Virus record (IMG/VR): IMGVR_UViG_3300050034_000334
DNA length: 64,000 nucleotides
Source of the DNA: a virus
Lineage: Duplodnaviria; Caudoviricetes
Strand: one strand, 5' to 3'
The notes below the pieces were generated by a model. It was given only the letters and a program-made list of their open reading frames with translations, was not told the origin of the DNA and ran no database searches. Each line of letters starts with the position of its first letter. The stretch's first letter is position 1. Below, one piece after another: positions 3,784 through 57,845 of the stretch. The position numbers were made by a program, and so were the translations under genes.

Positions 3784-4314
3784 TCAATAGAACAGGTACT
3801 TCTTCCACTTTTCCATGCCGGCACCCATAGAACGAATCAGGTTCCGGTTGGTGTGAATGGTCAATGGACGAGGGTAGCGAATCAGTTTCATGTCCTTGAT
3901 ATCGCTCAGATCCCTGTCGCCCTTCTTCTGGTTGCAAGCCTGACAAGCCGTGACCAGGTTCTCCCAGCAGTTCCTTCCACCCTTGGACTTCGGTACAACG
4001 TGGTCCCAGGTGAGATTCTTTGCTGAGAACTGAACACCGCAGTACTGGCAGGTGTAACCGTCGCGAAGGTAGATGTTCCGTCTGCTCAACTCCTGCTGAC
4101 GGTGTGGCACCTTCCGGTACTTCACCAGCCTGACTACGCAAGGAAGAAAGAATCCTGGACGAACCAAGAGGTCATACTCTTCCTCAGACTTGGCAACTCC
4201 CTTGATTACCATGCACAGTGCCCGCTGAGCACTCGCATAGCGCAGCGGCTCGTAACTGGCATTCAGTACGAGAACCGGAGTCGACTTGATGAGAGTGTTG
4301 GTTGCGGACAACAT
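3784..4314 (-). CDS. HNH endonuclease (McrA-like)
   Basis: VLVLNASYEPL start; RDGYTCQYCG...TWDHVVPKSKGG...WENLVTACQACNQKK; RBS AAGGAAA. Confidence 0.92.
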   Translation of the reverse strand: MLSATNTLIKSTPVLVLNASYEPLRYASAQRALCMVIKGVAKSEEEYDLLVRPGFFLPCVVRLVKYRKVPHRQQELSRRNIYLRDGYTCQYCGVQFSAKNLTWDHVVPKSKGGRNCWENLVTACQACNQKKGDRDLSDIKDMKLIRYPRPLTIHTNRNLIRSMGAGMEKWKKYLFY

Positions 4315-6744: not shown

Positions 6745-6932
6745 ATTCAACGCCGGTGCTCTATCCAGGCTGAGCTACCACCAAGCGAATGGACCGTTCC
6801 GCCGACCTTGATTCCCCTCTAGAAAAGGAATCCTGGGACTCTTAGGGCATGGTCACTTGCTCTGTCTAAACGGGTGGGTTGGATTCGGACCAACGACCAC
6901 CGGCTGCTTGTTGGGCGGAATGATCACACCCG
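6745..6932 (-). ncRNA. Permuted tRNA-like element (T arm before D arm) or tandem tRNA remnants
   Basis: GCCGGT-GGTC-GTTGG-TCCGAAT-CCAAC-CCACCCG, then ~85 nt, then TTGGTGG-TA-GCTC-AGCCTGGATA-GAGC-ACCGGC. Confidence 0.5.
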
Positions 6933-22976: not shown

Positions 22977-23061
22977 TGGTGCCGATGGCCGGGATCGAAC
23001 CGGCACGCCCGAAGACACTGGCTTTTGAGACCAGCGCGTCTTCCAATTCCGCCACATCGGC
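22977..23061 (-). tRNA. tRNA-Leu(CAA)
   Basis: GCCGATG...CTGGT-CTCAAAA-GCCAG...CATCGGC-A-CCA. Confidence 0.97.
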
Positions 23062-23075
23062 ACATTTCAAACCTT

Positions 23076-23160
23076 TGGTGCCCGATAAGAGACTCGAACT
23101 CTCACGCCTTGCGACAACAGATCCTAAGTCTGCCGCGTCTGCCAATTCCGCCAACCGGGC
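23076..23160 (-). tRNA. tRNA-Leu(TAG)
   Basis: GCCCGGT...GCAGA-CTTAGGA-TCTGT...ATCGGGC-A-CCA. Confidence 0.97.
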
Positions 23161-23173
23161 ACTTACTAAACTC

Positions 23174-23329
23174 TTGTACGAACGAATGACGAGATGGGAA
23201 ATGCCTTTCGGCTACCGCTGCCTTTGCCAGCTTGGCTACTCCCCGTCATGGTCGGGGAGACAGGACTCGAACCTGTGAAGACTTTCGTCGGCGGTTCCAA
23301 GATAACCCACTACTCTACGGCTCGTACAA
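23174..23329 (-). ncRNA. Circularly permuted tRNA-like RNA (Y RNA/YrlA-like candidate)
   Basis: Order: ACCGC, variable arm, T arm (ACAGG-TTCGAGT-CCTGT), CTCCCCG-ACCA-TGA-CGGGGAG, D arm (GCC-AAGCTGGCAAA-GGC), GCGGT, GCCGAAAG; ends pair TTGTACGA/TCGTACAA. Confidence 0.75.
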
Positions 23330-23333
23330 AACT

Positions 23334-23422
23334 TGGTCGGGATGAAGGGAGTCGAACCCTCACGCTACTTGATTTCGCTCGTGGACCTGAACCACGCGTG
23401 TCTGCCATTTCACCACATCCCG
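23334..23422 (-). tRNA. tRNA-Leu(CAG)
   Basis: CGGGATG...CGTGG-TTCAGGT-CCACG...CATCCCG-A-CCA. Confidence 0.96.
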
Positions 23423-23441
23423 AAACTCTACTTCAAAACTT

Positions 23442-23528
23442 TGGTCGGAGCGAAGGGATTCGAACCCTCCCGATGTTGCCACCATGAGCACCTCAAGCTC
23501 ACGCGTCTGCCAGCTTCGCCACGCTCCG
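23442..23528 (-). tRNA. tRNA-Leu(GAG)
   Basis: CGGAGCG...TGAGC-TTGAGGT-GCTCA...CGCTCCG-A-CCA. Confidence 0.96.
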
Positions 23529-23534
23529 ACATCT

Positions 23535-56199: not shown

Positions 56200-56685
56200 T
56201 TATGTTCCTGTGGAGCCGAATCCTCCAGTGCCTCTACTTGTATCCGAAAGTTCATCTACAGCGATCGCAGTACCCATATACATGGGAACATACGCGATTT
56301 GGACGAGCCGGTCACCCTGCTCCCACCAGAAATCGGATTCGCTGAGATTTTCCAGTCCAATCATGATTTCGCCGCGATAGTCTGCGTCGATCAGGCAAGG
56401 AGAGAAATAGAGGCGGATACCTCGAGTGGCAAGGCCAGATCGAGGAATGAGGAGTCCATGCAAGGTGAATGGAATCTGGGTTGATCCCATTCCATCCGTG
56501 ACAATGTTGAAGTCTTGGCAGACTTCATGAGCTATGCCAGTGGGGACTTTCTTCCTCTCATGAGGAGACAGGCAACCGTCCTCTGGTGCGTAGATGTCGA
56601 ATGCGCCGGAGTGCTCCGTGCCTCTCTGGGGAAGCCTGGATCCTGGACGCAGCAATTTGAACTTGACTGCAGGAAAATCATTCAT
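56200..56685 (-). CDS. dut: dUTPase (trimeric)
   Basis: SGAFDI; PRSGLA; LIDADYRGEI; DRLVQ; RGTGGFGSTG. Confidence 0.96.
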   Translation of the reverse strand: MNDFPAVKFKLLRPGSRLPQRGTEHSGAFDIYAPEDGCLSPHERKKVPTGIAHEVCQDFNIVTDGMGSTQIPFTLHGLLIPRSGLATRGIRLYFSPCLIDADYRGEIMIGLENLSESDFWWEQGDRLVQIAYVPMYMGTAIAVDELSDTSRGTGGFGSTGT

Positions 56686-56710
56686 GGTGGCTCCAATACT
56701 TGTACAGTTC

Positions 56711-57496
56711 TCAGTTGGAAGTTATCAACCACTTAGAGAAGTCAAAGTCAGTGGTTGGATAGGTCCCTGTTGTCAGAGCCACCACTTCCAATGGTCCGGC
56801 TATGCGGGGGATTTCGATTTCCGTAAACTCGACATCCGGACTCACTAGCTTCTCGAGCAGTTCAAAGTGCCGCTCGTAGATATGGGCTGAATCGGACACG
56901 TGATGATAGGTTCCCAGCTGTAACTCTGGATAGGCTACAAGCAGGGCATTGTGTACCATCTCATGGATGAAGCTGAAAGCTGGAGCATCGTTGCCCATGC
57001 CGTACACCATGTCTTGCGACCGCATGCGGACTGACATATTCAGCTTGTTGTCACGAATGCGGAAGCCAATGCACATCGTGCAAGGCACGTCCTTCGCCTC
57101 GGCGATAAGATGCGTGTGGTCAAGGATGGTAATGTAGGCACGGCGGGAATCCTTATCCCGGCCAAGTTCTTCCACCACCCAGTTGAACCCCTTCATGCGG
57201 AAGGCATACAGTCCATAGTTGGAATTCAACCGTCCCTTGTGAACGATGTTCTTCCATATCGACGCCTTGTCGCAGATGGATAGGTCATAGGGATCTCCGT
57301 TCAGGTACCAACGGAACTCATCCTTGATGTATCCTAACTTGAGGTTGCGGGGAACGAAGCTGGGGAATCTAACATAGGGAGGGAGTTCATAGGCGAAGTT
57401 CTCAACCTCCAAAACTGTGAGACCCCTGGGTTTGACTAACTTCCCATTTCTGTGGATTGTTTGGTAGATATCCTGCCAGATATCCTTCTGAGTCAT
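56711..57496 (-). CDS. Thymidylate synthase-family enzyme (possibly a dCMP (hydroxy)methylase)
   Basis: LNSNYG; DKDSRRA; catalytic DVPCT; MRSQDMVYGMGND; SAHIYERH. Confidence 0.88.
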   Translation of the reverse strand: MTQKDIWQDIYQTIHRNGKLVKPRGLTVLEVENFAYELPPYVRFPSFVPRNLKLGYIKDEFRWYLNGDPYDLSICDKASIWKNIVHKGRLNSNYGLYAFRMKGFNWVVEELGRDKDSRRAYITILDHTHLIAEAKDVPCTMCIGFRIRDNKLNMSVRMRSQDMVYGMGNDAPAFSFIHEMVHNALLVAYPELQLGTYHHVSDSAHIYERHFELLEKLVSPDVEFTEIEIPRIAGPLEVVALTTGTYPTTDFDFSKWLITSN

Positions 57497-57515
57497 GGTT
57501 CACACCTCGTTTGAG

Positions 57516-57845
57516 TTACGCGGCGGAACCCTCCTCCCTTGTATCTAGGAAACGAGCTTTCTGTCGCTTTCCTTTAGATACTGTAGAGGTTCTCACAGAC
57601 GTGCGTTTCTTACTTCTACTTGGTCTCTTCTTTTTAGAAGGCACGATGGTCAGCTTGGGTCTTGCAGCACGTTCGGCCTTGTAGTCTTCCCACGAAAGGT
57701 CCGCCAAGAGATGATACCTTGAGGGACAGATGTAGGCATCAAATAATTCGGTTTCAGGCCGCAGGTTTGGGTTCTCACGAGAGCCTCCGCAAGCTGGGCA
57801 TTGGGCTGGTCGAGGAGCCGCCTGTTTGACGATAGACTTTGCCAT
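57516..57845 (-). CDS. Basic Zn-ribbon hypothetical protein
   Basis: CPACGG...CPSRYH; Lys/Arg-rich tail. Confidence 0.6.
   Translation of the reverse strand: MAKSIVKQAAPRPAQCPACGGSRENPNLRPETELFDAYICPSRYHLLADLSWEDYKAERAARPKLTIVPSKKKRPSRSKKRTSVRTSTVSKGKRQKARFLDTREEGSAA

What the first reader, a model, noticed from the sequence alone, without database searches (positions are those of the whole stretch)
23174..23329. Circularly permuted tRNA mimic (Y RNA/YrlA-like) embedded among the Leu tRNAs
Seen: the 3' half of a long-variable-arm tRNA (T arm, CTCCCCG-A-CCA) comes before a perfectly complementary 5' half (CGGGGAG, D arm, GCGGT), joined by only TGA. Acceptor (7/7) and anticodon-stem (5/5) strands match, and the RNA ends pair (TTGTACGA/TCGTACAA). 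A GCCGAAAG motif follows the D arm. Established (from memory): bacterial YrlA Y RNAs have this T-AS-D permuted order and a GNCGAAN0-1G Ro60-binding motif, and occur in some phages, often with Ro60 and RtcB. No Ro60/TROVE gene is in this window. Alternatives are a permuted tRNA gene, a nuclease or synthetase decoy, or two half-decayed tandem copies.
Basis: partly seen in the sequence, partly recalled or inferred. Interest (0 to 1): 0.7.

Follow-up and report, generated by a model that had tools for sequence, protein, structure and literature searches.

The report
Phage Y RNA shaped like tRNA
The 173-base gap between two leucine tRNA genes of this peat-soil jumbo phage encodes a back-to-front tRNA look-alike that belongs to a known class of small RNAs (YrlA-type Y RNAs, partners of the Ro60 protein). 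It is unusual in sitting inside a tRNA operon, carrying a built-in CCA, and having no Ro60 gene in the DNA available.

Summary
The order is T arm, 7-bp acceptor stem closed by the loop A-CCA-UGA, then D arm. A 5-bp anticodon-stem equivalent and a 12-bp stem between the two ends complete the fold.

It is not two decayed tRNA copies. A covariance model built from it finds full-length relatives:
- a paralogue in the same genome (52.5 bits);
- RNAs 150-1350 nt upstream of Ro60 genes, on the same strand, in four phage contigs and three bacterial genomes. At two of the bacterial sites Rfam's YrlA model also matches, below its threshold.

Across 15 full-length relatives, 92.6% of pair cells are paired (62.9% when shuffled) and 43 of 48 pairs show compensatory changes.

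Rfam's YrlA score for the element is only 22.6 bits against a threshold of 69. That threshold also misses every RNA beside 15 phage Ro60 genes, so it says little here.

GCCGAAAG after the D arm is a GNRA hairpin. The homologous 5' motif is GCCGUAG, one mismatch from the consensus.

No Ro60 or RtcB gene lies in the 187 kb held (about 60% of the genome). Function with Ro60 is therefore inferred.

This scan also noted the same stretch, and paralogues in this genome, independently.

Verdict: a new variant of a known kind, of moderate interest.

The parts
23161..23333 (-). Whole element E1: the complete spacer between tRNA-Leu(cag) and tRNA-Leu(tag), 173 nt
   Evidence: The model R1 built from it scores 221.9 bits here.
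23320..23331 (-). 5' strand of the terminal stem (UUUUGUACGAGC)
   Evidence: In 15 relatives, 11 of its 12 pairs show compensatory changes. The paralogue E2 has a U:A to C:G swap.
23172..23183 (-). 3' strand of the terminal stem (GUUCGUACAAGA)
23315..23321 (-). GCCGUAG, at the position of YrlA's 5' GNCGAAN0-1G (Ro60-type) motif; one mismatch
   Evidence: In the alignment it lines up with GUCGAAAG of the Ro60-adjacent RNA L253:3596-3755. L290 has GCCGAAG at the same place. The motif is defined in PMC4201824.
23191..23315 (-). Inner stalk helix: GAG-UA-GUGGG (23315-23306) pairs with CCCAU-CUC (23198-23191) and encloses the tRNA-like head
   Evidence: MFE and constrained folds. Helices 2 and 3 covary.
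23302..23305 (-). UUAU, the YUAY motif that precedes the V region in YrlA RNAs
   Evidence: The sequence; PMC4201824 Figure 2 legend. The same GGGUUAUCU occurs in L225:9785-9921.
23291..23295 (-). ACCGC, 3' strand of the anticodon-stem equivalent
   Evidence: 5/5 pairs with GCGGU. Helix 4 covaries at 5 of 5 pairs.
23280..23289 (-). V hairpin GAC-GAAA-GUC (a long variable arm)
   Evidence: Long V arms are known in many YrlA RNAs (bioRxiv 10.1101/312249).
23260..23276 (-). T arm ACAGG-UUCGAGU-CCUGU
23239..23259 (-). 7-bp acceptor stem CUCCCCG/CGGGGAG closed by the loop A-CCA-UGA. The predicted RNase P site is between 23246 and 23245.
   Evidence: 7/7 pairs. The helix is 99% paired and all 7 pairs covary. 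The cleavage is inferred from M. smegmatis YrlA.
23220..23236 (-). D arm GCC-AAGCUGGCAAA-GGC, preceded by U8 A9
23214..23218 (-). GCGGU, 5' strand of the anticodon-stem equivalent
23203..23212 (-).
   Evidence: The Ro60-adjacent L253:3596-3755 has the same hairpin. L290 and L287 have GCAA- and GCGA-capped hairpins at the same place.

Best explanation
E1 is a phage-encoded Y RNA of the YrlA type. It has two modules. The stalk is formed by its two ends and carries a diverged Ro60-type 5' motif. The head is a tRNA-like domain written in permuted order (V, T, acceptor, D) with no anticodon loop.

Shown:
- the fold;
- its homology to RNAs beside Ro60 genes;
- covariation of every helix.

Inferred:
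1. It is transcribed with the Tyr-Leu-Ser tRNA operon. The ordinary tRNA end-processing of its two neighbours then sets it free. RNase P cutting at the 5' end of tRNA-Leu(tag) makes its 3' end, and 3' maturation of tRNA-Leu(cag) makes its 5' end.
2. The stalk binds a Ro60 ring protein, encoded either by the host or by the unseen 40% of the phage genome. The head then recruits a tRNA-binding factor, as proposed for YrlA.
3. The acceptor stem has the full 7 bp and is followed by A-CCA. RNase P can therefore open the loop before C of CGGGGAG, as it does in M. smegmatis YrlA. After trimming of UGA this would leave a two-piece RNA with a free CCA end.
For: Architecture: the Rfam YrlA model aligns T, AS and D in that order. 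All tRNA tertiary-contact bases are present. The YUAY motif and the end-to-end stem fit the YrlA description.

Homology: the model R1 built from E1 matches full length at the following places.
- Paralogue E2 in the same genome: 52.5 bits, E 1.6e-13.
- L253:3596-3755: 48.4 bits. L253:2667-2833: 31.9 bits. Both lie upstream of a bona fide Ro60 gene (TROVE plus vWA_Ro60).
- L258:3556-3708: 34.6 bits. L255:3686-3844: 21 bits. L261:3188-3274: 17 bits.
- All these phage matches lie within 1.35 kb upstream of Ro60 and on its strand.
- Bacterial Ro60 loci L287, L290 and L292: 24-26.5 bits. In L290 and L292 Rfam's YrlA model hits the same place.

For comparison, tRNA junctions score 20 bits or less with this model and cover only its core.

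Covariation in 15 full-length rows: 92.6% of cells paired against 62.9 +/- 1.4 when shuffled and 39-45% when slid. 43 of 48 pairs show double changes. The acceptor stem is 99% paired.

No promoter-like or terminator-like site separates E1 from its flanking tRNAs.

Precedent for the RNase P cut and the CCA end: M. smegmatis YrlA.
Against: - The Rfam YrlA score is 22.6 bits against a gathering score of 69. That is close to tandem-tRNA junction noise in the same genome (17-20 bits).
- No TROVE, vWA_Ro60 or RtcB gene lies in the 187 kb held.
- The closest cultured relative, Tunturi_5, has a complete genome with no TROVE gene.
- Two complete phage genomes that carry full-length relatives (G009, G010) also lack TROVE.
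- The 5' Ro60-type motif has one mismatch.
- Copies with this particular head occur only in near-identical strains.
- No discrete transcript is shown. Contigs from RNA runs cover E1 only as part of longer pieces.
- The covariation alignment was fitted to the model, which favours pairing.
Confidence: 0.75

Rival explanations
1. E1 descends from Y RNAs but works without Ro60. Once RNase P opens it, it is an anticodon-less tRNA body with a real A73-CCA end. It could act as a decoy or sponge for proteins that read the acceptor, T and D body of tRNA. Candidates are host anti-phage enzymes that target tRNA, CCA-end modifiers, a synthetase, or tRNA processing enzymes.
For: Six of eight records that are at least 90% complete and carry CCA-loop permuted elements have no TROVE gene. 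The complete Tunturi_5 genome has a T-AS-D element but no TROVE. E1 has a full 7-bp stem plus an encoded ACCA, unlike the 6-bp closed stem of Salmonella YrlA. It sits inside a tRNA operon, not beside Ro60.
Against: The stalk, which serves no purpose in a pure tRNA decoy, is conserved and covaries. The stalk is homologous to stalks of RNAs next to Ro60 genes. A host Ro60 was not excluded.
Confidence: 0.2
2. E1 is two half-decayed tandem copies of one tRNA gene. Complementarity of the acceptor and anticodon-stem strands would then follow automatically from the duplication.
For: A tandem duplicate would give the 7/7 and 5/5 matches by construction. The Rfam tRNA model finds a weak tRNA-like match at 23252-23324 (19.5 bits). 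Dimeric tRNAs are known false positives for YrlA models.
Against: The flanks are not decayed tRNA. They form a 12-bp stem and a stalk that are homologous to the paralogue E2 and to Ro60-adjacent RNAs. All helices covary. Fifteen further pattern matches outside this genome (about twelve distinct sequences) keep the same two halves and lack the other two.
Confidence: 0.03
3. E1 is a true circularly permuted tRNA gene of the Cyanidioschyzon type. Its transcript would be circularised and re-cut to give a decoding tRNA.
For: It has the 3' half before the 5' half, an encoded CCA, and paired ends that could be joined.
Against: There is no anticodon loop: the anticodon-stem equivalent runs straight into the stalk. 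All five Leu isoacceptors are already encoded. No RtcB ligase gene lies in the DNA held. A bulge-helix-bulge splice motif was not looked for.
Confidence: 0.02

Closest known systems
YrlA (Y RNA-like A), Rfam RF02553; S. Typhimurium YrlA bound by Rsr/Ro60 (PMC4201824; structure paper bioRxiv 10.1101/312249)
   Same: A stem formed by the 5' and 3' ends. A permuted tRNA-like head in the order V, T, AS, D with no anticodon loop. The YUAY motif before the V region and the tRNA tertiary-contact bases. Many YrlAs also have a long V arm.
   Different: The Rfam score is far below threshold (22.6 against 69). The acceptor stem is 7 bp with an encoded A-CCA, not a 6-bp closed stem. The 5' motif has one mismatch. 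There is no adjacent rsr or rtcBA. It lies inside a tRNA operon.
Mycobacterium smegmatis YrlA (PMC4201824, section 8)
   Same: A 7-bp acceptor stem. That RNA is cut by RNase P in the acceptor loop, and its 5' half ends in CCA.
   Different: There only the first C is encoded and CA is added afterwards; here the whole ACCA is in the gene. That RNA lies upstream of rsr and was shown to bind Rsr; nothing has been tested here.
YrlA-like RNAs of Ro60-encoding mycobacteriophages (22 phages in PMC4201824)
   Same: Phage-encoded Y RNAs with tRNA-like heads.
   Different: Those were found within 4 kb of a phage Ro60 gene on the same strand. E1 has no Ro60 gene in 187 kb and belongs to a Tunturi_5-like soil jumbo phage clade.
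Circularly permuted tRNA genes of Cyanidioschyzon merolae (Soma 2014, cited in PMC10085705)
   Same: The 3' half is encoded before the 5' half, joined by a short linker.
   Different: Those mature into complete decoding tRNAs. E1 has no anticodon loop and carries a conserved stalk instead.
Two-piece (permuted) tmRNA, Rfam RF04321
   Same: Permuted T arm-acceptor-CCA order, processed into two base-paired pieces.
   Different: The match is only 15 bits against 47. E1 has no tag reading frame and no pseudoknots.

Membership tests
YrlA-type Y RNA | Rfam RF02553 covariance model at or above its gathering score of 69 bits | tested here: not met
   The score is 22.6 bits and covers model positions 29-81 only. 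tRNA junctions in the same genome give 17-20 bits. The same threshold finds nothing within 4 kb of 15 phage Ro60 genes. Beside bacterial Ro60 genes the model gives 30.6-42.8 bits. The threshold is therefore insensitive for this clade.
YrlA-type Y RNA | tRNA-like domain in the order V, T, acceptor-like stem-loop, D, with tRNA tertiary-contact bases and no anticodon loop | tested here: met
   U8-A14, G15-C48, G18G19/U55C56 and T54-A58 are all present. The anticodon-stem equivalent continues into the stalk.
YrlA-type Y RNA | Long stem formed by pairing of the 5' and 3' ends | tested here: met
   A 12-bp terminal stem plus an inner helix. Eleven of 12 terminal pairs show compensatory changes.
YrlA-type Y RNA | GNCGAAN0-1G motif near the 5' end | tested here: inconclusive
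   The homologous position reads GCCGUAG, one mismatch. The two exact matches, GACGAAAG and GCCGAAAG, lie elsewhere and are GNRA hairpins. The relative L253:3596-3755 has GUCGAAAG and L290 has GCCGAAG at the 5' position.
YrlA-type Y RNA | Encoded within about 4 kb of a Ro60/TROVE gene on the same strand (search criterion of PMC4201824) | tested here: not met
   No TROVE or vWA_Ro60 gene lies in the 187-kb record, which is about 60% complete.
YrlA-type Y RNA | Sequence and structure homology to RNAs that do lie beside Ro60 | tested here: met
   The E1 model gives full-length matches 150-1350 nt upstream of Ro60 in four phage contigs and three bacterial genomes. Two of these sites overlap an Rfam YrlA match.
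YrlA-type Y RNA | Binds Ro60/Rsr; modified by tRNA enzymes (TruB, DusA) | not testable with these tools
   Needs biochemistry.
Circularly permuted tRNA gene | The two halves rebuild a complete tRNA, including a 7-nt anticodon loop | tested here: not met
   No anticodon loop. ARAGORN and the Rfam tRNA model call no tRNA here.
Tandem tRNA junction or pseudogenes | The T arm and the D arm each belong to a recognisable tRNA (or its remnant) on either side | tested here: not met
   The flanks form the conserved stalk. True junctions in the pattern scan are called by ARAGORN on both sides.

The most novel reading that the evidence does not exclude
After RNase P opens the A-CCA-UGA loop, E1 would be a chargeable but non-decoding tRNA body: a 7-bp acceptor stem, A73 and a free CCA. 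Together with its paralogues that carry other tRNA-type heads in other tRNA arrays of the same phage, it would form a set of amino-acid-specific mimics made from the same operons as the tRNAs. These could report on, or divert, synthetases or host tRNA-directed defences. They might also couple that state to RNA decay through Ro60.
Probability: 0.1. Interest if true: 0.8.

Novelty: new variant of a known kind. Interest (0 to 1): 0.5.

Why it matters
Y RNAs and Ro60 are best known from animals and a few bacteria, and what the tRNA-like head of bacterial Y RNAs does is still open.

This phage clade makes Y-type RNAs from inside its tRNA operons, in several paralogues. Their acceptor ends look ready for RNase P and already carry CCA. 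Complete genomes of related phages often have no Ro60 gene.

That gives a tractable system, since a cultured relative (Tunturi_5) exists. It could be used to ask whether the head acts as a real tRNA substrate and whether Y RNAs can work with a host Ro60 or without any.

It also shows that the curated Rfam threshold misses a whole branch of this family.

Tried and rejected
- Rfam at gathering score finds only tRNAs in the window.
- TROVE, vWA_Ro60 and RtcB searches of the 187-kb record found nothing. The record is incomplete, so this does not show absence.
- Relatives found through the neighbouring DUF932 gene were distant. The three whose records were searched with the E1 model held no E1.
- Tunturi_5 has no E1 orthologue. 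The best match of the E1 model there is a tRNA junction at 19.4 bits.
- Scans of phage records, viral contigs and metagenome contigs for E1's own head gave only near-identical copies of the L001 type. The Leu-array element itself therefore has no deep conservation to test.
- RNA runs: contigs of four metatranscriptomes contain E1, but only inside longer contigs with the flanking tRNAs. These are contigs, not reads, so they show neither ends nor that a discrete RNA exists. Parts without cover say nothing.
- 'The head mimics tRNA-Leu' is not established. Alignment to the phage's 31 tRNAs ranks Leu(taa) first but barely above Ala and Asp. The D-arm likeness to other CCA-loop elements was forced by my own search pattern.
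- The host Ro60 check failed.
- The tmRNA_permuted match of 15 bits was dismissed.
- The stalk 15-mer scan gave 90 hits, mostly chance. Only L214, L225, L241 and L215 were real.

Full report
**What is there.** All 18 tRNA genes of the window lie on the minus strand. The finding fills the whole 173-nt spacer (23161-23333) between tRNA-Leu(cag) and tRNA-Leu(tag). Read as RNA, it runs in this order:
- a 12-bp stem strand;
- an internal loop and an inner helix strand;
- UUAU;
- ACCGC;
- a GAC-GAAA-GUC hairpin;
- a canonical T arm;
- CUCCCCG, then A-CCA-UGA, then CGGGGAG;
- U8 A9 and a D arm;
- GCGGU;
- a GCC-GAAA-GGC hairpin;
- the return strands of the inner helix and the terminal stem.

The bases that make tRNA's tertiary contacts are all in place. 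The minimum-energy fold reproduces this architecture with z = -3.18.

**Is it chance or decay?** A tandem duplicate of one tRNA would give complementary acceptor and anticodon-stem strands automatically, so those matches alone prove little. Three results exclude decay.

1. A scan of viral contigs for 'T loop, 11 nt, CCA, 7-17 nt, D arm' gave 124 matches with a bimodal acceptor complementarity.
   - Most score 1-5 of 7, but 18 score 7/7.
   - Fifteen of the 18 lie outside this genome, about 12 of them distinct.
   - None overlaps a tRNA called by ARAGORN.
   - Four of the seven distinct 6/7 matches (L041, L094, L112, L134) are ordinary tRNA-tRNA junctions.
   - The arrangement is therefore a recurrent stand-alone element of tRNA-rich phages.

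2. The same genome holds a second element, E2 (G000:C1:154072-154222), between tRNA-Val and tRNA-Gly.
   - Its head differs: a Glu-like D arm, a GCCA loop and an anticodon-like hairpin.
   - Its stalk is the same: 5' GUUUUGYACGAGCCGU and 3' UUCGUUCGURCA, with a compensatory U:A to C:G change.

3. A covariance model built from E1 (R1) matches E2 full length (52.5 bits, E 1.6e-13).

**Link to Ro60.** The stalk 15-mer led to contig IMGVR_UViG_3300029915_000016.
- There a gene with TROVE and Ro60-vWA domains is preceded on the same strand by a row of at least seven stalk-type small RNAs.
- R1 matches two of them full length, at 48.4 and 31.9 bits.
- The first has GUCGAAAG, an exact GNCGAAN0-1G, near its 5' end. 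It also has the same GCCGAAAGGC hairpin after its D arm as E1.

In 29 phage loci fetched with that Ro60 protein, R1's other full-length matches are L258:3556-3708, L255:3686-3844 and L261:3188-3274. All lie 150-1350 nt upstream of Ro60 on its strand.

In bacterial Ro60 loci, R1 matches L287:701-873 and L290/L292:2000-2155, again just upstream of Ro60. In L290 and L292, Rfam's YrlA model matches the same place (30.6 bits).

With R1, tRNA junctions stay at 20 bits or less and cover only the core of the model.

**Covariation.** The counts come from 15 full-length matches aligned to the model and counted:
- 92.6% of pair cells are standard pairs. The figure is 62.9 +/- 1.4 after shuffling and 39-45% with the partners slid.
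- 43 of 48 pairs have changes on both sides.
- The terminal stem covaries at 11 of 12 pairs.
- The acceptor stem covaries at 7 of 7 pairs and is 99% paired.

Caveat: an alignment fitted to the model leans towards its structure.

**Family membership.** The literature describes YrlA in these terms (PMC4201824; bioRxiv 10.1101/312249):
- a stem formed by the two ends that binds Ro60;
- a GNCGAAN0-1G motif near the 5' end;
- YUAY opening the V region;
- then V, T, a closed acceptor-like stem-loop, and D;
- many members with long variable arms;
- M. smegmatis YrlA, which has a 7-bp stem, is cut by RNase P and acquires CCA.

E1 fits all of this except three points.
- Its Rfam score is 22.6 bits against 69, close to junction noise of 17-20 bits.
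- Its 5' motif reads GCCGUAG.
- No Ro60 gene lies nearby.

The Rfam failure carries little weight. The same threshold finds nothing beside 15 phage Ro60 genes, and the model stays below threshold beside bacterial ones.

That hairpin recurs at the same place in relatives with other sequences, such as GCAA and GCGA loops.

**How it probably works.** No promoter-like or terminator-like site separates E1 from its neighbours. It is most likely cut out of the tRNA operon transcript by the tRNA-processing enzymes acting on the flanking tRNAs.

By homology, the stalk should bind Ro60 and the head should engage a tRNA-binding partner. The head has a full 7-bp acceptor stem, the discriminator A and an encoded CCA. 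It looks like an RNase P substrate, and opening it would expose a real CCA end. All of this is inference.

The RNA-run contigs that contain E1 are longer pieces that also include the flanking tRNAs, and they cannot show ends.

**What speaks against a Ro60 role here.**
- No TROVE, vWA_Ro60 or RtcB gene is in the 187-kb record, which is about 60% complete.
- The closest cultured relative, Tunturi_5 (43.7% identity in the DNA ligase), has a complete genome with a T-AS-D element but no TROVE.
- Two complete phage genomes with full-length relatives lack TROVE.

A host Ro60, or a Ro60-independent role as a tRNA decoy, therefore remains a serious alternative.

**Other notes of this scan.** They describe the same stretch (their follow-ups are withheld) and several further permuted tRNA mimics in this genome, which other agents read as YrlA-type.
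- I found E2 before reading those notes and tested it myself.
- Two of their claims I did not test: that a Ro60 gene lies in sister strains, and that RNA ends carry extra CCA.

**Verdict.** E1 is a real, structured RNA gene and a diverged member of the YrlA Y RNA class. It is a new variant, not a new kind. Its distinguishing features are its place in a tRNA operon, the built-in ACCA on a 7-bp stem, paralogues with different heads, and no Ro60 gene in view.

Noticed in passing
G000:C1:154072-154222 (+), outside the window (locus L252:174-335): A second permuted tRNA-like RNA (E2) lies between tRNA-Val(tac) and tRNA-Gly(gcc). It has the same stalk as E1, a Glu-like D arm, a GCCA-AAUCAU acceptor loop and an intact anticodon-like hairpin with GUC.
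   Followed up: yes
L250:86-1370 (IMGVR_UViG_3300029915_000016, about 56470-57750): A row of at least seven stalk-type small RNAs, each starting AAGUUU(U)G, lies directly upstream of a Ro60 gene (L250:1426-3108). Some have tRNA-like heads, one of them with an ACCA loop. Others are stalk-only, resembling YrlB.
   Followed up: partly
window 6748-6913 (-): Another T arm / long insert / D arm element lies between tRNA-Asn and tRNA-Lys(ctt). It has the T arm GUUGG-UCCGAAU-CCAAC, the D arm UAGCUCAGCCUGGAUAGAGC, and GCCGGU/ACCGGC pairing.
   Followed up: partly
window 3784-4314 (-): A 176-aa HNH endonuclease (HNH_5) sits inside the tRNA array. Its homologues lie about 0.5-3 kb upstream of the Ro60 gene in 20 of 29 phage Ro60 loci.
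   Followed up: partly
G000:C1:155970-156056 (+): The 87-nt spacer between tRNA-Ala(cgc) and tRNA-Glu(ttc) has CCCGGGUCGAAC at its 5' end and AUCCGGG at its 3' end. It looks like a head-less stalk RNA similar to those upstream of Ro60 in L250.
   Followed up: no
window, 3' trailers of the tRNA genes (for example 23441-23434, 23333-23326): Most tRNA genes of this phage are followed directly after CCA by A(A)G(A/U)UUUG. The Y-like RNAs in L250 start with the same words. This may be a shared processing signal.
   Followed up: no
L026:1425-1650 (Tunturi_5, PP885688.1 about 253825-254050): A T-AS-D element follows tRNA-Val in the cultured relative. Its acceptor-like stem is long and closed, with no CCA. 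It scores 29.7 bits with Rfam YrlA, and the genome has no TROVE gene.
   Followed up: partly
L040, L062, L070, L071, L113 (around the permuted elements): In these contigs the CCA-loop permuted elements are flanked by repeated (C/U)AGCAA words just inside the closing stem. No such words occur in E1.
   Followed up: no
L001:5638-6090 compared with window 23030-23530: A strain 99% identical elsewhere has different tRNA-Leu genes, in a different order, around an almost unchanged E1. The element was kept while its neighbours were exchanged.
   Followed up: partly
L285:3693-3870: One metagenome copy of E1 has C instead of G at the last base of the acceptor 5' strand, which breaks one pair. This is a single contig and may be an error.
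   Followed up: no
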